DNA of 56,283 nucleotides, taken from the UHGV virus genome UHGV-0315882; one strand, given 5' to 3'. Under the pieces are notes generated by a model. It was not told the origin of the DNA. It was given only the letters and a program-made list of their open reading frames with translations, and searched no databases. This DNA comes from a virus. Positions 33,682 through 40,077 of this stretch are shown here, one piece after another. A program made the translations under genes and the position numbers. How positions within the stretch are numbered: position 1 is the stretch's first letter; each line of letters begins with the position of its first letter.

Positions 33682-36381
33682 ATGGAAAACGTAGATTTTA
33701 AAAACTTACATTTGGTTGGTGATACAGAAACTGATGGTTTACTCCTTGAGTTCACTAAAGTGCACGTAATGGCTTTCGCAGACTATAAATCTGACGATGA
33801 AGAGCCACCTGTATGGGTCTTTACAGATGAACCTATCCTCGGTCACAAGTATACCAAGTACATTAAGGGTGGCTTACGTGAAGGTGTTGAATTTGCGTTA
33901 AAGGCAAAACGTCTTTGCATCCATAATGGTCTCGGTTATGACTGGTGGGTTTTCAATCACATTGCACCTGATTTGTGGAACTTTGATAATCCAAAATGTA
34001 AGCCGTGGAGTAATTTCTTTCAGGATTCTCTTATCCAGTCTCGTGTTCAGTGGATGGATAGACCAACTCCAAAGGGCTATAAAGGTGCTCATGGTTTGGC
34101 TGCATGGGGTGCTCGTGTTGGTGTTCGTAAACCAGAGATTGAACATTGGGGTGTGTGGAATGCAGAAATCTTCACTCGTGTTGTAGAAGATATCCGTATT
34201 AACGCCAAAACTAAACGGGCGCTTGATAATGAATATCTCAAGCTTAAGAAGTGTGGCATAGACACTTATGAAACCTACATGCGAGCTAAAGAAACATCTT
34301 TCTGGATGAGTCAACAAGCTATCAATGGCTGGAAAGCTGATAAAGAGCTTATGGAGTTCCATGTAAAGGAACTTGACAAGTTGACTAATGAGCTTGCTTC
34401 AGAGGTTGAACCACATCTACCTCCAACTATTAAGACCAAAGGTAAAGTAACTGGTGAAGAGTTTGCAAAGGCTTGGAATGAGTATGTTGAAACATTTGGT
34501 CATGCAGATGGGTTGAAGAGAATCACCAAGTATCCTAAGACGAAGTACCGTCAACAGGTGCGTAACGGTGAGATGCAGACATACGAAATCAAACCATTTG
34601 GTAAGCCAACTACAAAGATTTTTAACATTGAAAAGAGAAATTGCTATACACCAACCAACTCTGTAACTGGTGAAGAGTACAAGGAAGGCTTTGTAGCAAT
34701 GAAGGATGCTCGTGCAATTTGCAATGAGTTGAATGCAAAGATTGGTAAGAAATGCAAAGACTGGAAGCCAGTGAAAACAGTCAAAACTGTGAAGTACTAT
34801 AACAGTCACGTTGTTAACCACTTTGAACTTGAGTCAAGTCGATACACAGGTTTGATTGATGCACCATATACACCAATTGATTTTGAAGTTTCTCGTATGA
34901 CTCAGGTAGCAGTTGTTAAAGACTACTTGAAATCAGTTGGTTGGATTCCAGATGACTGGAACTACAAGAAAGACTCAGATGGTCGCCCTGTCAAAGTTTG
35001 TCGTTTCAAAGACAATAAAAAGATGATTACAAAACATCCTAAGTGGCAGGAAATGGTTGAGCGGTGTGGTTTGAGCTATGTTGAACATGAAGGTGTACAG
35101 TACATTGAACATAACTGGTCTGTGAAGAAGTACACAGATTTGCTTGAGCCTTGCTTAATCCGTACTTCACCAAAGCTTACTGAGTCATCTTATGATACGA
35201 TTGAAGGTGAACTTGGACAGAAGATTGCTAAGTACTATACTTTGATGCACCGACGCAGAACTATTGAGAACTCAAAGGATGATGAAAAAGGTTGGTTGAA
35301 CCAGATTCGTCCTGATGGTCGCCTTAGTGCTGGTGCAATGGTGTTTGGTACTTCAACTGGACGTATGACACAATATGGTATTGTAAACGTACCGTCTGGT
35401 GCTGCTGTCTATGGGGAACCAATGAGGGCAGTGTGGATTTGTGAGGAAGGTACTAACGTTGTCTCTGTAGATATGAACTCAGCCCAGCTAGTTCTACTTT
35501 GTAACTTTATGGGTGATAAAGACTTCACCAAAGCGGTAACGCAAGGTAAAGAAGAAATTGAGTTCATTCGTCAAGAAGATGGACGCTATTACTGCAAACA
35601 CTTTGATGAGTACCTCAACCCAGAGATTGATAAGTACCTTCGCTATGACTCTGAGAATGACCTGTACGTTGTCTATTCAGGGACTGATGCACATACACTG
35701 AACAGTATTTACTTTAGCTTGAATGATGAGCAGGACATCTTGACTTGTCGAGCTACTCAGGATGAGAATCTTCTTCATGAGATTAGCAAAGGTCGTAAGA
35801 AAGCTAAGAATGGTATCTATGCACTGCTGTTCGGTGCAGGTGATGAGAAGTTTGCTAAGACGATTAAAGCTGCGACTACTCAGGAAGGTGCGCTGACTAA
35901 ACAGACTTACTTTATACGTTTGCCTAAAATTAAGAAGCTACTAGATGACTTGGAAGCTGACTACAAAGCAACTAAAAAGGCACTTGAAGAGGTGTTTGGT
36001 AAGACTGCTGCAATCTCTAAAGGGGGTTTTGTAAAGGTTGCTGGAGCTTGGTTGTGGTGTAAATCTCCACATAAGTTATTGAATTATTTGCTTATGGGTT
36101 CGGAAAGTCAGATTCAGAACGAGGCAATTAACCTTGCTTGCCGTCGTATGATTGACGAAGGTTTGATGAAGTTGAACGGTCGCAAACCCGCTATAGGTGC
36201 TCGTTTATTGTGCTCCTATCACGACGAGACAAGTTGGGAATGCCCAGAAAGTATGACGGCAGAGGTGAAGGCTGTTACTGATTGGTATTACGGGCAAGCC
36301 TCTAAGAACTTAGGACTAAAAAGTGAAACACTGGTAACTGGTACTGGTAAGGTTGGCAAATCGTGGTTGGAAGTGCATTAA
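33682..36381 (+). CDS. DNA polymerase, family A (T7-like) with 3'-5' exonuclease domain
   Basis: Start trimmed to MENVDF with GAGGGAG RBS; Exo I DTETDG; motifs resembling pol A motif A (VDMNSAQL), motif B (KNGIYALLFG) and motif C (YHDE). Confidence 0.85.
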   Translation: MENVDFKNLHLVGDTETDGLLLEFTKVHVMAFADYKSDDEEPPVWVFTDEPILGHKYTKYIKGGLREGVEFALKAKRLCIHNGLGYDWWVFNHIAPDLWNFDNPKCKPWSNFFQDSLIQSRVQWMDRPTPKGYKGAHGLAAWGARVGVRKPEIEHWGVWNAEIFTRVVEDIRINAKTKRALDNEYLKLKKCGIDTYETYMRAKETSFWMSQQAINGWKADKELMEFHVKELDKLTNELASEVEPHLPPTIKTKGKVTGEEFAKAWNEYVETFGHADGLKRITKYPKTKYRQQVRNGEMQTYEIKPFGKPTTKIFNIEKRNCYTPTNSVTGEEYKEGFVAMKDARAICNELNAKIGKKCKDWKPVKTVKTVKYYNSHVVNHFELESSRYTGLIDAPYTPIDFEVSRMTQVAVVKDYLKSVGWIPDDWNYKKDSDGRPVKVCRFKDNKKMITKHPKWQEMVERCGLSYVEHEGVQYIEHNWSVKKYTDLLEPCLIRTSPKLTESSYDTIEGELGQKIAKYYTLMHRRRTIENSKDDEKGWLNQIRPDGRLSAGAMVFGTSTGRMTQYGIVNVPSGAAVYGEPMRAVWICEEGTNVVSVDMNSAQLVLLCNFMGDKDFTKAVTQGKEEIEFIRQEDGRYYCKHFDEYLNPEIDKYLRYDSENDLYVVYSGTDAHTLNSIYFSLNDEQDILTCRATQDENLLHEISKGRKKAKNGIYALLFGAGDEKFAKTIKAATTQEGALTKQTYFIRLPKIKKLLDDLEADYKATKKALEEVFGKTAAISKGGFVKVAGAWLWCKSPHKLLNYLLMGSESQIQNEAINLACRRMIDEGLMKLNGRKPAIGARLLCSYHDETSWECPESMTAEVKAVTDWYYGQASKNLGLKSETLVTGTGKVGKSWLEVH

Positions 36382-36391
36382 TGGTGACAAA

Positions 36392-36919
36392 ATGATTACA
36401 CAAGAACGTTTAAAGGAGCTACTACACTATGACCCCGAAACAGGGGTCTTTACTTGGCTTCGTAGAGAGGGTGACTCAAGGGCTGTTAAAGTCTTTAATA
36501 GTAAGTACGCAGGACAGGTAGCGGGGAGCATCCAGATTGACTCAACTAGTCATAAGCAGATTACTATCTATTTTGACAAGAAAGCACATAAAGCACACAG
36601 ACTCGCATGGCTGTACGTGTATGGTAGGCTACCGAAAGGTGTTATTGACCATATTAATGGGGACTCCCTTGATAACAGGGTTGTAAACTTAAGAGAAGCA
36701 GATGACTGCCAAAGTGCTTGGAATAAAAGCAAACTATCCACCAATAAATCAGGCTATAAGGGTGTAAGCCTGAAGAAGAAGTCTGGTAGGTGGGTTGCGC
36801 AAATAAGCTATAAAGGTAAAAAGATGTCATTAGGTTACTATGACACACCAGAAGAGGCCCATAAAGCTTACTGTGAAGCTGCTATTAAACTCCACGGAGA
36901 ATTTGCAAAACTAAGTTGA
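36392..36919 (+). CDS. HNH homing endonuclease with C-terminal AP2 DNA-binding domain
   Basis: HRLAWLYVYG...DHINGDSLDNRVVNL (HNH) and YKGVS...GRWVAQI...YDTPEEAHKAY...HGEFA (AP2-like); start trimmed to MITQE. Confidence 0.65.
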   Translation: MITQERLKELLHYDPETGVFTWLRREGDSRAVKVFNSKYAGQVAGSIQIDSTSHKQITIYFDKKAHKAHRLAWLYVYGRLPKGVIDHINGDSLDNRVVNLREADDCQSAWNKSKLSTNKSGYKGVSLKKKSGRWVAQISYKGKKMSLGYYDTPEEAHKAYCEAAIKLHGEFAKLS

Positions 36920-38114: not shown

Positions 38115-38306
38115 ATGAACAAAGAAGATAAGCATAAAAATGCTGTACGAACTCCTGATGGAAAGGTTCAATCCTTCATCCTGACAGTTGGTGGAAAGCC
38201 GTTTCGTTGCCACTGCGGAGCGAACTGTTTTCATAAACCAGATAAAAATGACTTAGAGCTTTACGCATGTAATGCTTGCAATACTTGGTATCACTCAGAG
38301 GAATAA
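38115..38306 (+). CDS. small zinc-ribbon protein (63 aa), paralog of 37602-37787
   Basis: FILTVGGKPFRCHCGANCFHKPDK...LYACNAC. Confidence 0.5.
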   Translation: MNKEDKHKNAVRTPDGKVQSFILTVGGKPFRCHCGANCFHKPDKNDLELYACNACNTWYHSEE

Positions 38307-38307
38307 A

Positions 38308-39411
38308 ATGACAATTCTATACAAACAAAATAAAGACGGCTCTTTCAACGTTTGGTCATGCGTTGCTGTAGGTGATAAAGTTGTTACAACCTACGGTAAA
38401 GAAAATGGCAAGATGATGTTTGAAGAGTATACAGCAGAACCTAAAAACATCGGTAAAAAGAATGAGCGTAACGCTGAACAGCAAGCTCTCTTTGAAGTTG
38501 CTGCAAAGTATAAAAAGCAGGTTGACCGCAAAGGTTATGCTTACACAAAAGAGTCTGCACAGAATACTGAGAAGGTAGGTGTACAGCTTGCTCATGATGC
38601 TGCAAAGGTTAGTCATGCAAAGTATTTGAAATTCCCTGCTGATGCTCAACCGAAGCTTGATGGTGTACGTTGTAGAATTTCAAGACACTTAAGCATTGGT
38701 AGCGTATTCACAGCATACTCTCGTGAGAATACTGTTTATAAAATCCCTACTGAACTCATACCTGACATTATGGCAATGTTAAGGCTCCACAAAGATGTTG
38801 ATGAGTTTGATGGAGAGATTTATGCTCATGGGTGGGACTTAGAAGATATCGTCTCTATGATTAAAAATGAAGACAATCCTGACAGACACCTGCTCAAGTT
38901 TTACTGGTATGATATCTGTGACAGTACTAAGACGTGGCCTGAGCGTAGAGATATCATTGAGACTTCACCATTGAATGGCTTTAGAGATGGCTGTAAAGTT
39001 GTCCCTGTTAAGTCTCGTCGTGTAAATTCTTGGGAAGAATTTGATGAAGCTCATGATAAGTGGGTTGAAGCTAAGTTTGAAGGTGCAATGTACCGTTCAA
39101 TCTCTGAAGACTCCTTCTATGAGTGTTGTCACCGTTCATACTTCTTGATTAAGCACAAGAAGATGCACACTGAAGAGTTTAAAGTAACTGGTGTCAAGAC
39201 TGATAAACGTGGACATGGCAAGTTCGTTGTAGAGACTCTTCCTAACGTCTTTGTAGATGTCTCATGGAAGACTACTCATGAGAAGAAACAGTATCTTGCT
39301 GAGCATCCTGAAGAGTTTATTGGGAAACCTTTAACGGTTCAGTTCCAGAAGATGACTCGTAAAGGTTCTTTACAGTTCCCTGTTGGGTTAGTTATTCGAG
39401 ACTACGAATAA
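38308..39411 (+). CDS. ATP-dependent DNA ligase-like protein
   Basis: Nucleotidyltransferase motif I KLDG (PKLDGVRC); GAGGA RBS; ~367 aa. Confidence 0.6.
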   Translation: MTILYKQNKDGSFNVWSCVAVGDKVVTTYGKENGKMMFEEYTAEPKNIGKKNERNAEQQALFEVAAKYKKQVDRKGYAYTKESAQNTEKVGVQLAHDAAKVSHAKYLKFPADAQPKLDGVRCRISRHLSIGSVFTAYSRENTVYKIPTELIPDIMAMLRLHKDVDEFDGEIYAHGWDLEDIVSMIKNEDNPDRHLLKFYWYDICDSTKTWPERRDIIETSPLNGFRDGCKVVPVKSRRVNSWEEFDEAHDKWVEAKFEGAMYRSISEDSFYECCHRSYFLIKHKKMHTEEFKVTGVKTDKRGHGKFVVETLPNVFVDVSWKTTHEKKQYLAEHPEEFIGKPLTVQFQKMTRKGSLQFPVGLVIRDYE

Positions 39412-39418
39412 AAAGTTG

Positions 39419-39446
39419 TTGACATAGAAAATTTGGTGAGTATACT
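39419..39446 (+). promoter_or_regulatory. Strong sigma70-like promoter
   Basis: TTGACA (39419-39424), 16 bp spacer, TATACT (39441-39446). Confidence 0.55.
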
Positions 39447-39620
39447 GAGCAGCATAAAACAACAGGTACTCACCAGCATCACTTAAGAGTCTTCTAAGAG
39501 GGTTTTAAGTGATGTATTGCACGGTAAAGTGATGTGAAGTCTGGTTTGGCATGGTGTGGTCTGGTATGGAAGGATGGCAGTAGCCTTATAAAAAATCTGC
39601 CAAATAAGCTATAAAATCTG

Positions 39621-39649
39621 TTGACAAGTCAGGTGTTATAGCTTATTTT
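39621..39649 (+). promoter_or_regulatory. Candidate sigma70-like promoter
   Basis: TTGACA (39621-39626), 17 bp spacer, TATTTT; ~45 bp upstream of the 39694 start codon. Confidence 0.4.
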
Positions 39650-39693
39650 TATACTCAATGTAATACAAAATTTAATATAACTTTGAGGTCATT

Positions 39694-40077
39694 ATGAAAA
39701 AGGTTTTATTAGCTGCTGCAATGGTTATGGCAATGAATTTACCAGTCAATGCAACAGAACTCCCAAACGTGGACTTATCAGGTGTTCCAGCAGACACTTG
39801 CCAGATTGTAAAAGGTGTTGCTCTGGCTAATGGTGAGCTACTTAAACCAATCTCTGAAGAGTCTTTGACAGAGATGACTGATAAGGTGACTGACTATCAG
39901 TATCGTGTTCTTGCAGAGTATTTCCTGCAATCTGCAAACATTAAAGAGAAGCACCATGAAGATATTGATGTACAGGCTATGCTTAATCATCGTATCCAGT
40001 TTAAAGAAGATTTGATGCAAAAAGCTATGTATGGTGTTGAGTATTTCTTAGAAAACAGAAGCTGCACAGGTATTTGA
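39694..40077 (+). CDS. secreted (signal-peptide) protein of unknown function (127 aa)
   Basis: N-terminal signal peptide MKKVLLAAAMVMAMNLPVNA followed by a charged mature region. Confidence 0.55.
   Translation: MKKVLLAAAMVMAMNLPVNATELPNVDLSGVPADTCQIVKGVALANGELLKPISEESLTEMTDKVTDYQYRVLAEYFLQSANIKEKHHEDIDVQAMLNHRIQFKEDLMQKAMYGVEYFLENRSCTGI

What the first reader, a model, noticed from the sequence alone, without database searches (positions are those of the whole stretch)
39412..39693. Structured 280 bp intergenic region with a near-consensus promoter and nested inverted repeats
Directly after the ligase stop lies TTGACA-16-TATACT. It is followed by inverted repeats GGTGAGTA...TACTCACC (8 bp arms) and CATCACTTAA...TTAAGTGATG (10 bp arms), GT-rich short repeats, then a second promoter-like site before ORF 39694. 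A strong promoter driving ~200 nt of structured noncoding sequence fits a small regulatory RNA or a long structured leader.
Basis: seen in the sequence. Interest (0 to 1): 0.45.

Follow-up and report, generated by a model that had tools for sequence, protein, structure and literature searches.

The report
Orphan VIPR guide-RNA gene in phage
This gap between two genes of a Felix O1-like phage holds one guide-RNA gene (vrRNA) of the VIPR RNA-guided silencing system described in 2026, but the phage has lost the Vipr protein that uses such guides, so the RNA is probably a decaying leftover.

Summary
The window is a Felixounavirus. The 282-bp gap is a compact copy of a modular noncoding array conserved across three Ounavirinae genera. 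The order is: promoter P1, an 18-20 bp hairpin, 11-12 in-phase GGYNN pentamers, an H-type pseudoknot, then a hairpin that carries promoter P2.

The same pentamer arrays sit beside a ~190-aa protein in 35 unrelated viral contigs. A profile of that protein matches PDB 36pp, "SUSP1 Vipr protein", at E = 3.6e-80. Two 2026 bioRxiv preprints describe the system as VIPR. Vipr, a RAMP/Cas7-like protein, polymerises on the GGY motifs of ~100-nt vrRNAs. The variable NN dinucleotides then read double-stranded DNA with one base skipped, which silences a satellite phage.

I reproduced that targeting rule with guides from relatives. The window phage has no vipr or vap1 gene, and neither does the complete genome of its close relative Si3. 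The window guide has only 6 of 10 canonical GGY units and no detectable target.

Verdict: this is a member of a recently described kind, a solo "orphan" vrRNA gene that is most likely a transcribed relic. The idea of a structured small RNA is broadly right. The idea of a classical regulatory sRNA or leader is not.

The parts
38272..39411 (+). ATP-dependent DNA ligase gene (upstream context)
   Evidence: ORF list. Pfam DNA_ligase_A_M and DNA_ligase_OB_2. Annotated as ligase in relatives.
39419..39446 (+). Promoter P1 of the vrRNA gene: TTGACA-16-TATACT. The start site is predicted near 39453.
   Evidence: 11/12 match to the sigma-70 consensus. Nearly invariant in 23 related loci, Moogle and SUSP1. 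1 polymorphic column of 28 among 10 close relatives. The start site is inferred, not measured.
39434..39475 (.). Inverted repeat TGGTGAGTA / TACTCACCA. The left arm overlaps the P1 -10 hexamer. Role unexplained.
   Evidence: I12. Both arms are invariant while the spacer varies at 4 positions. The left arm lies upstream of the predicted start site, so it cannot fold in the P1 transcript (read directly from the sequence).
39477..39514 (+). Hairpin A: about 18 bp, G.U-rich near the apex, UAA loop. It lies 5' of the repeats and is probably a processing or boundary element removed from the mature vrRNA.
   Evidence: Folding. Covariation on 41 distinct copies: 92.7% paired, 6 pairs changed on both sides, conserved G.U pairs and a U.A to U.G polymorphism that fit only the + strand RNA. 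The processing role is inferred from the ~100-nt size of mature vrRNAs reported.
39508..39567 (+). vrRNA repeat tract of 12 in-phase GGYNN units: AGTGA TGTAT TGCAC GGTAA AGTGA TGTGA AGTCT GGTTT GGCAT GGTGT GGTCT GGTAT. The first two units overlap the 3' arm of hairpin A. The guide dinucleotides (units 2-12) are AT AC AA GA GA CT TT AT GT CT AT.
   Evidence: Family-wide logo from 527 pentamers: G1 84%, G2 97%, T3 90% (C 9%), N4 and N5 free. Matches the GGY/NN definition of vrRNAs.
39568..39602 (+). Invariant 3' tail forming an H-type pseudoknot. Stem 1: 39570-39573 with 39584-39587. Stem 2: 39575-39580 with 39597-39602. Loop 3 is A-rich.
   Evidence: Covariation: stem 1 paired in 26/26 sequences with 3 of 4 pairs changed on both sides; stem 2 has 6 of 8 pairs changed on both sides; slid controls are 26-45% paired. 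The preprints describe and resolve a 3' pseudoknot that caps SUSP1 vrRNAs.
39602..39649 (+). AT-rich hairpin with 19-nt arms (one mismatch, one G.U) followed by a T run. Its loop carries the P2 -35 hexamer (39621-39626) and its tail the -10 hexamer (39644-39649). Probably ends the vrRNA unit and restarts transcription.
   Evidence: I1; 10/12 promoter match; fold. Invariant in all loci. P2 is annotated as a promoter in ASO1A. The terminator function is inferred; the consensus scan did not call it.
39694..40077 (+). 127-aa ORF with an N-terminal signal-peptide-like sequence (downstream context, phrog_4332, function unknown)
   Evidence: sequence read.

Best explanation
The region is a single vrRNA gene of a type II (SUSP1-clade) VIPR locus.

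How it is built:
- P1 starts transcription.
- The 5' leader and hairpin A are probably trimmed off.
- The mature RNA of about 90-100 nt would consist of about 11 GGYNN repeats capped by the 3' pseudoknot.
- The AT-rich hairpin that follows ends the unit and carries promoter P2 for the next genes.

How it works in relatives that encode Vipr (from the preprints): one Vipr protomer binds each GGY motif, building a helical filament from the pseudoknot in the 3'-to-5' direction. The exposed NN dinucleotides pair with double-stranded DNA while skipping every third target base. The resulting R-loop triplex blocks transcription of a satellite phage.

In this phage, the vipr and vap1 genes that normally sit inside the array are absent. 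The single RNA joins the P1-proximal hairpin to the P2-proximal tail, as expected from a deletion between repeated array elements. Without Vipr it cannot act on its own. Its eroded GGY motifs and lack of a detectable target make a still-transcribed, decaying relic the most likely state.

Basis of each step:
- Shown here: the anatomy, the homology, the absence of vipr, the erosion, and the missing target.
- Taken from the preprints: the RNA size, Vipr binding and silencing.
- Inferred: the start site, the processing, the deletion route and the relic status.
For: Locus and architecture:
- The window is a Felixounavirus, and the locus is syntenic with the SUSP1 VIPR locus.
- The same modular array, with 1 to 6 modules, is found in 23 IMG/VR loci, VpaE1, Moogle and SUSP1.
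- Pentamer logo G1 84%, G2 97%, Y3 99%, N4/N5 free. Module lengths change in 5-nt steps. Tracts hold 6-16 units with a mode of 11.
- Hairpin and pseudoknot covariation.

Link to Vipr:
- Homologs of Felix-like gp096 lie next to GGTNN arrays in 35 unrelated viral contigs.
- The family profile hits PDB 36pp_D 'SUSP1 Vipr protein' at E = 3.6e-80.
- An AlphaFold model (pLDDT 93.4) matches Csm3/Cas7 RAMPs.
- The preprints define VIPR and vrRNAs: 9-16 YNNGG repeats, a pseudoknot tail, ~100-nt RNAs and the 1-nt skip rule.

Targeting rule reproduced:
- About 28 of 62 guides from relatives match an E. coli satellite at 82-95% of NN positions, at least 2 above shuffled controls.

Orphan and relic status:
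- No Vipr or Vap1 homolog in the window or in the complete Si3 genome, which is 93.5% identical to the window and has the same one-module locus.
- Canonical GGY units: 66% in one-module orphans against 83.5% in vipr-positive loci, Fisher p = 0.013.
- The window guide has no target above control level and no exact match in three large collections.
Against: - No expression data exist for this phage. The RNA size and processing are extrapolated from SUSP1.
- P1 (1/28 polymorphic columns) and the tail (1/35) stay almost invariant among ten vipr-less relatives, and the NN positions vary little (3/20). That is more conservation than a purely neutral relic predicts, although recombination with vipr-positive relatives could explain it.
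- Two-module orphans keep guides that still match the satellite: L012 at 20/22 and L029 at 21/24.
- Satellites carry vrRNAs without vipr, so use of Vipr supplied in trans is plausible.
- The erosion statistic rests on four RNAs, two of them from one lineage.
- The target search did not cover a Salmonella pangenome, which is the likely host range of this phage's closest relatives.
Confidence: 0.9

Rival explanations
1. The orphan vrRNA is functional in trans. It could load onto Vipr made by a co-infecting vipr-positive phage and redirect silencing. Alternatively it could act as a decoy that soaks up a competitor's Vipr, an RNA 'anti-VIPR'.
For: - P1, the tail and the G2/Y3 positions are strongly conserved in ten vipr-less genomes.
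- About half of the Ounavirinae records keep vrRNAs without vipr: 118 records have vipr out of 231-260 with the locus.
- Satellites carry vrRNAs but no vipr, and the preprint says such satellite vrRNAs target other satellites.
- Two-module orphans keep guides that match the satellite at 83-91%.
Against: - The window guide has no target above chance.
- G1 positions are eroding: 5 of 10 are polymorphic, and only 6 of 10 units are canonical.
- There is no experimental evidence for trans-loading or decoy activity.
Confidence: 0.22
2. It is a conventional small regulatory RNA or a long structured leader. Such an RNA would act by contiguous base pairing with an mRNA, or would control the downstream ORF in cis.
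For: - A strong promoter is followed by a stably folding transcript: -61.9 kcal/mol, z = -4.2.
Against: - The conserved positions are GGY at 5-nt spacing while the intervening bases are hypervariable. A contiguous antisense seed would show the opposite pattern.
- The downstream ORF has its own conserved promoter, P2, after the RNA.
- No Rfam family matches.
- Homology to experimentally defined vrRNAs explains all the features.
Confidence: 0.03
3. It is only transcriptional punctuation: a terminator for the ligase operon plus a promoter for the next operon, as annotated in phage ASO1A.
For: - ASO1A annotates hairpin A as a rho-independent terminator and P2 as a promoter.
- The 39602-39648 hairpin is followed by a T run.
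Against: - Hairpin A has no T run after it and was not called by the terminator scan.
- Punctuation does not explain P1, the phased pentamers, the covarying pseudoknot, or the copy-number variation.
Confidence: 0.04
4. It is a DNA-level element: a replication origin driven by R-loops on a G-rich non-template strand, a cluster of primase sites, a packaging site, or (on the opposite strand) a Rho loading site.
For: - The tract is G-rich on the + strand, sits downstream of a strong promoter, and lies among replication genes.
- One public record (pinkbiff) starts inside this region.
Against: - G.U pairs and the pseudoknot with an A-rich loop 3 point to a + strand RNA.
- The + strand RNA folds far better than the - strand RNA.
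- UAB_Phi87 has 608-bp terminal repeats, and this locus lies about 58 kb into that record.
- The Vipr association explains the 5-nt period.
Confidence: 0.01

Closest known systems
VIPR type II (SUSP1-clade) vrRNA (bioRxiv 10.64898/2026.04.26.720920 and 10.64898/2026.04.26.720927)
   Same: - Same syntenic position, between the ligase gene and the 127-aa ORF.
- Same promoter P1.
- Same GGY/NN pentamer repeats, with a unit count inside the reported 9-16 range.
- Same pseudoknotted 3' tail.
- The last-vrRNA tail and the P2 hairpin are identical to those of SUSP1.
   Different: - No vipr and no vap1 gene in the phage.
- Only one vrRNA, against four in SUSP1.
- G1 is lost in about 40% of units.
- No target found under the 1-nt skip rule.
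- Vipr-less phage arrays are not discussed in the preprint's main text: the words 'orphan' and 'Felix' do not occur.
CRISPR crRNA with a Class 1 Cas7 backbone, and orphan or phage-borne CRISPR arrays
   Same: - A guide RNA with a variable part capped by a conserved structured handle.
- A RAMP-fold protein polymerises along the guide and flips out bases periodically. The Felix-like Vipr model matches Csm3/Cas7; the parallel is drawn in the preprints.
- Arrays that survive without their effector genes are also known for CRISPR (my own knowledge).
   Different: - The period is 5 nt with three bases sequestered and two read, not 6 nt with one base flipped.
- The guide is noncontiguous.
- There is no repeat-spacer organisation of 28-37-nt units and there are no adaptation genes.
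TRAP binding to the trp leader (GAG/UAG triplets with 2-3-nt spacers)
   Same: A protein oligomer reads a conserved triplet every 5 nt on single-stranded RNA while the spacers are free. This was my working analogy before the Vipr link appeared (my own knowledge).
   Different: - TRAP is a closed 11-mer ring that controls attenuation and does not use the spacer bases.
- In VIPR the spacer dinucleotides are the information-bearing guide.
Phage T2/T4 gene 32 mRNA pseudoknot
   Same: An H-type pseudoknot with a 1-nt loop 1 spanning a 6-8-bp stem 2 and a ~7-nt A-rich loop 3, next to an unstructured protein-binding tract. The geometry comparison is from memory.
   Different: - No sequence relationship.
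- Here the pseudoknot lies 3' of the tract and caps a guide RNA rather than nucleating a translational repressor.

Membership tests
VIPR vrRNA (type II, SUSP1 clade) | Tandem GGY/NN (YNNGG) pentamer repeats, 9-16 units, kept in phase | tested here: met
   12 in-phase units at 39508-39567. G2 and Y3 are kept in 12 of 12 units and G1 in 6 of 12. The family logo comes from 527 pentamers. The definition is given.
VIPR vrRNA (type II, SUSP1 clade) | Invariable 3' tail that folds into a pseudoknot | tested here: met
   39568-39602. Stem 1 is paired in 26 of 26 sequences, and 9 of 12 pairs show changes on both sides. The sequence is identical to the tail of the last vrRNA in SUSP1.
VIPR vrRNA (type II, SUSP1 clade) | Located in a locus with a vipr (RAMP homolog) gene | tested here: not met
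   tblastn with Felix-like Vipr finds nothing in the window or in the complete genome of Si3. The control on VpaE1 gives 100% identity at E = 1e-133. The position is nevertheless syntenic with vipr-positive loci.
VIPR vrRNA (type II, SUSP1 clade) | Accessory gene vap1 next to vipr | tested here: not met
   No homolog of VpaE1_086 (the gene after vipr, presumed vap1) in the window or in Si3.
VIPR vrRNA (type II, SUSP1 clade) | Expressed as a discrete ~100-nt RNA that co-purifies with Vipr | not testable with these tools
   Shown for SUSP1 by small-RNA sequencing and pull-down. Here there is only a near-consensus, conserved promoter.
VIPR vrRNA (type II, SUSP1 clade) | NN dinucleotides match a natural DNA target under the 1-nt skip rule (at least 80% of NN positions) | tested here: inconclusive
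   - Best score is 17/22 (77%), equal to the shuffled-unit controls, on five satellite variants, the window and VpaE1.
- No exact match in IMG/VR, GTDB species representatives or JGI metagenomes.
- Guides from relatives score 82-95% in the same scan.
- A Salmonella pangenome was not available.
Intrinsic (rho-independent) terminator | G+C-rich stem-loop immediately followed by a run of U | tested here: not met
   This applies to hairpin A (39477-39514), which ASO1A annotates as a terminator. It has no T run after the stem and was not called by the scan. The 39602-39648 hairpin has a T run but an AT-rich stem and a 9-nt loop, and it was also not called.
Any curated Rfam family | Covariance-model score at or above the gathering threshold | tested here: not met
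   No hit at gathering thresholds in the whole window. Only two chance-level hits with E > 2 in 39380-39720.
CRISPR array | Direct repeats of about 28-37 nt alternating with unique spacers of similar length | tested here: not met
   The repeat analysis finds only 5-nt phased units and module-level repeats.

The most novel reading that the evidence does not exclude
Vipr-less phages may keep solo vrRNA genes on purpose. The RNA would load onto Vipr supplied by a co-infecting relative, as the vipr-less satellites presumably do. It would then either redirect that protein or act as a decoy that titrates it, which would make it an RNA-based anti-VIPR. This would explain why P1, the pseudoknot tail and the G2/Y3 positions stay nearly invariant in about half of all Felix O1-like genomes that lack vipr.
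Probability: 0.2. Interest if true: 0.7.

Novelty: new member of a known kind. Interest (0 to 1): 0.42.

Why it matters
VIPR was described only in 2026, as a noncontiguous RNA-guided DNA-recognition system proposed to be older than CRISPR.

- This window shows that raw sequence reading can pick out its guide-RNA genes.
- Roughly half of the Felix O1-like phage records keep vrRNA genes after losing vipr: 118 records carry vipr out of 231-260 that hold the locus, and among Salmonella phages about 17 of 75. These phages include ones used for Salmonella typing and biocontrol.
- That gives a natural series for asking how guide arrays decay, or are reused, once the effector is gone. The series runs from vipr-positive phages, to two-module orphans that still match the satellite, to one-module orphans that are eroding.
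- It also corrects public annotations that call these elements terminators, repeat regions or nothing at all.

Tried and rejected
**Hypotheses dropped**
- Protein-sponge RNA of the TRAP, CsrB or gp32-operator type; R-loop origin; primase-site cluster; G-quadruplex array; Rho loading site on the minus strand; packaging site. All were working hypotheses. They were dropped once the Vipr association and the preprints explained the 5-nt period.
- Genome terminus, suggested because the pinkbiff record starts inside the region. Rejected because UAB_Phi87 has 608-bp terminal repeats and the locus lies about 58 kb into that record.
- Small peptide coding in the tract. Rejected because a 5-nt period is incompatible with a reading frame and stop codons are frequent (read from the sequence).
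- The window guide as an ortholog of the last SUSP1 vrRNA. The similarity is only 54% at NN positions, so the claim was not made.

**Searches that led nowhere**
- The 15-nt match at 36800-36814 lies inside a homing-endonuclease-like ORF and is chance.
- Rfam gave nothing.
- Pfam, PHROGs and PADLOC on neighbouring proteins named only an HTH_3 regulator.
- BLAST of the module against E. coli genomes found no match.
- Exact 1-nt-skip pattern of SUSP1 vrRNA1 in IMG/VR found no match.
- Exact pattern of the window guide in IMG/VR, GTDB representatives and JGI metagenomes found no match. The 9-unit subpattern gave 30 hits, all in unrelated taxa and roughly in line with my estimate of about 17 chance matches.
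- Literature searches on Felix O1 genomics and transcriptomics found no earlier description of the element.

Full report
**1. The observation**

The window is a Felix O1-like myovirus of the genus Felixounavirus. A 3-kb stretch around the finding matches 260 phage records at 80-99% identity. The finding lies between an ATP-dependent DNA ligase gene (38272-39411) and a 127-aa ORF (39694-40077).

- P1: TTGACA 39419-39424, 16-nt spacer, TATACT 39441-39446 (11/12).
- First inverted repeat: TGGTGAGTA 39434-39442 / TACTCACCA 39467-39475.
- Second inverted repeat: CATCACTTAA 39477-39486 / TTAAGTGATG 39505-39514.
- P2: TTGACA 39621-39626, 17-nt spacer, TATTTT 39644-39649 (10/12).

Two corrections matter. 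The left arm of the first repeat overlaps the -10 hexamer, so it cannot be part of a P1 transcript. The 'GT-rich short repeats' are a strictly phased pentamer tract. A run of at least five GG dinucleotides at 5-nt spacing occurs only here in the window, and only at the homologous locus in the 88-kb VpaE1 genome; shuffles expect 0.015.

No Rfam family matches. The predicted + strand RNA folds at -61.9 kcal/mol (z = -4.2). The opposite strand folds at -41.9 kcal/mol.

**2. Anatomy from relatives**

In VpaE1, two extra genes sit between the ligase gene and the 127-aa ORF. Both flanking gaps there hold several tandem modules. The same plan is found in 23 IMG/VR loci, in Citrobacter phage Moogle and in Escherichia phage SUSP1:
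- P1;
- one to three modules of [hairpin A, (GGTNN)n, element B];
- optionally the two extra genes followed by a canonical terminator;
- one to three further modules;
- an AT-rich hairpin whose loop holds the P2 -35 hexamer.

The window, L008, L009 (EC6) and L024 (Si3) have a single module and no extra genes.

Across 46 unique tracts (527 pentamers), G1 is G in 84%, G2 in 97% and position 3 is T in 90% (C in 9%). Positions 4 and 5 are unconstrained. Tracts hold 6-16 units with a mode of 11, and module lengths change in 5-nt steps.

Hairpin A is really an 18-20-bp helix. On 41 distinct copies it is 92.7% paired, with six pairs changed on both sides. It has conserved G.U pairs and a U.A to U.G polymorphism that only make sense on the + strand RNA.

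Element B is an H-type pseudoknot. Stem 1 is paired in 26 of 26 distinct copies, with three of its four pairs changed on both sides (GUAG/CUAC, GUGG/CCAC, AAGG/CCUU). Stem 2 has six of eight pairs changed on both sides. Slid controls are only 26-45% paired.

**3. Identification**

An exact scan of IMG/VR for (GGTNN)7GGT hit more than 120 stretches in unrelated viral contigs. Several carry long arrays of ~10-14-pentamer modules with short punctuation between them.

I clustered the ORFs near these arrays. One family is present in 35 loci, usually directly upstream of the array on the same strand. It is homologous to the first of the two extra Felix-like genes, VpaE1_087 (a wV8 gp096 homolog, phrog_4652).

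This family has more than 500 members and no Pfam domain. A profile of 40 members hits PDB 36pp_D, 'SUSP1 Vipr protein', at E = 3.6e-80. An AlphaFold model (pLDDT 93.4) matches Csm3/Cas7 RAMPs by Foldseek, with E about 1e-5 to 1e-4.

Two bioRxiv preprints from 2026 describe the system as Viral Interference Programmable Repeat, VIPR:
- vrRNAs of ~100 nt consist of 9-16 YNNGG repeats and an invariable 3' tail, which is a pseudoknot in the SUSP1 clade.
- One Vipr protomer binds each GGY motif.
- The NN dinucleotides pair with double-stranded DNA while skipping one target base per unit.
- The resulting R-loop triplex represses transcription.
- SUSP1-clade guides mostly target a satellite phage in E. 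coli.
- Small-RNA sequencing of SUSP1 infection showed one vrRNA upstream and three downstream of vipr-vap1.

The window's module therefore corresponds to one vrRNA gene. The residues the cryo-EM paper names as contacting RNA or DNA (H17, K33, R39, G87, R138, R179) are invariant or nearly invariant in my alignment.

**4. Independent check of the mechanism**

I parsed 62 distinct guides from the loci held and scanned them with the 1-nt skip rule.
- None matches the window or the VpaE1 genome better than shuffled-unit controls.
- The preprint says the satellite shares a baseplate hub protein with SUSP1. Using that hint, I found a chromosomal element of about 11.7 kb in 474 of 5426 complete E. 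coli genomes.
- On five variants of this element, about 28 of the 62 guides score 82-95% NN identity, at least two positions above the best of 20-30 shuffles.

This reproduces the published rule. The satellites carry their own vrRNA with a covarying tail but have no vipr gene.

**5. What is special here**

The window has no Vipr or Vap1 homolog. Neither does the complete 84.4-kb genome of Si3, which is 93.5% identical to the window over 51.6 kb and has the same one-module locus.

In the phage collection, 118 Ounavirinae records encode Vipr, against 231-260 that hold the locus. Among Salmonella phages the figure is 17 of about 75.

The window's RNA joins the P1-proximal form of hairpin A (prefix AGCATCAC) to the P2-proximal tail type. 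That is what a deletion between repeated array elements would leave (inference).

Evidence of erosion:
- The window guide keeps G2 and Y3 in all units, but only 6 of 10 units are canonical GGY.
- One-module orphans as a group have 66% canonical units, against 83.5% in vipr-positive loci (Fisher p = 0.013). The sample is small and partly non-independent. Two-module orphans have 81%.
- Among ten window-type orphans, polymorphic columns are 11/50 in the tract. By register that is G1 5/10, G2 1/10, Y3 2/10 (both T to C), N4 2/10 and N5 1/10. By contrast, P1 has 1/28 and the tail 1/35.

Evidence on targets:
- The window guide has no target above control level in the satellites.
- It has no exact match in IMG/VR, GTDB species representatives or JGI metagenomes.
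- A 9-unit subpattern gives only chance-level hits in unrelated taxa.

**6. Interpretation**

The best-supported reading is a solo vrRNA gene that is still promoter-driven but has lost its effector and is eroding. The main rival, at roughly one chance in five, is that such orphans work in trans with Vipr from a co-infecting phage, either as guides or as decoys. The tight conservation of P1 and the tail, the vipr-less vrRNAs of satellites, and the satellite-matching guides of two-module orphans keep that possibility open.

The classical-sRNA or leader reading, pure transcriptional punctuation, and DNA-level roles are all poorly supported.

Two details remain unexplained. One is the invariant inverted repeat overlapping the P1 -10 hexamer. 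The other is the role of hairpin A, which neither preprint discusses in its text. Mature vrRNAs are ~100 nt, which roughly equals the repeats plus the tail. Hairpin A is therefore probably removed, so it is a candidate processing signal (inference).

**7. Novelty**

The kind is known, though only since April-June 2026 and only from preprints. This instance is a new, effector-less member. Public records annotate the region as nothing, as a 'repeat_region', or as a terminator plus promoter.

Noticed in passing
L106 3220-4350 (+); L056 4560-5050 (-); L063 2200-3350 (+); also L055, L061, L068, L100, L105, L125: Many unrelated IMG/VR contigs carry long arrays of ~10-14 in-phase GGTNN pentamers. The arrays are separated by short conserved punctuation (GGCAGTTR; AAGGCTAATGG; AAGGAATGGTTTAATGAATTTAATT), usually right after a Vipr homolog. 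A second ~165-aa ORF family recurs in 8 of these loci. They are probably other VIPR types with other vap genes.
   Followed up: partly
L167 4600-16400 (NZ_LT594504.1); L168-L171: A satellite-like island of about 11.7 kb is present in 474 of 5426 complete E. coli genomes, at several integration sites (yciI/tonB, yecN/yecD, ymdF/wrbA). It carries a serine recombinase, a tape measure gene, and a baseplate hub gene 68-95% identical at the nucleotide level (about 90-95% in roughly half of the genomes) to the Felix-like gene. It is the target of about 28 of 62 Felix-like vrRNA guides.
   Followed up: yes
L167 5871-5920 (-); L169 4637-4696 (-): The satellites encode their own vrRNA. It has a GUGG/CCAC pseudoknot tail with a different, compensated stem 2, followed by a canonical terminator. 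The five satellite loci have no vipr or vap1 homolog, so these RNAs presumably borrow the helper phage's Vipr.
   Followed up: partly
window 39434-39475: The inverted repeat TGGTGAGTA/TACTCACCA has invariant arms while its 24-nt spacer varies. The left arm overlaps the P1 -10 hexamer. It could be an operator or a structure in read-through RNA from the ligase gene. No explanation was tested.
   Followed up: no
window 39477-39514 and all inter-vrRNA positions in L008-L030, L049, L050: Hairpin A comes in two compensated stem types but keeps a conserved G.U-rich apex (GUCUUYUAAGAGGGU). It precedes every vrRNA. Neither VIPR preprint mentions it in the main text. It is a candidate 5' processing signal.
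   Followed up: partly
window 39602-39649: The P2 -35 hexamer sits exactly in the 9-nt loop of a 19-nt-arm AT-rich hairpin, and the -10 hexamer sits in its T-rich tail. This looks like a compact terminator-promoter unit. It is invariant across three genera.
   Followed up: partly
phage collection: Only 118 of about 231-260 Ounavirinae records with this locus encode Vipr. Salmonella-infecting members are mostly vipr-less (17 of about 75), whereas E. coli-infecting ones mostly keep it. This fits the targeted satellite having been found in E. coli genomes.
   Followed up: partly
GU169904.1 (Staphylococcus phage SA1) 91679-92544; MG065668.1 (Campylobacter phage A126) 5415-5702: Records filed under Staphylococcus and Campylobacter phages contain Felix O1-like sequence, including this locus, and SA1 also contains vipr. 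These are likely mixed or misassigned records.
   Followed up: no
window 36353-36919: An ORF with an AP2-like motif (…YYDTPEEAHKAY…) interrupts the small-gene cluster upstream of the ligase gene. It resembles a homing endonuclease. Its 15-nt match to the P2 hairpin arm is chance.
   Followed up: partly
window 39694-40077: The ORF downstream of P2 begins MKKVLLAAAMVMAMNLPVNA, a typical signal peptide. It belongs to phrog_4332 (function unknown) and is conserved in all relatives.
   Followed up: no
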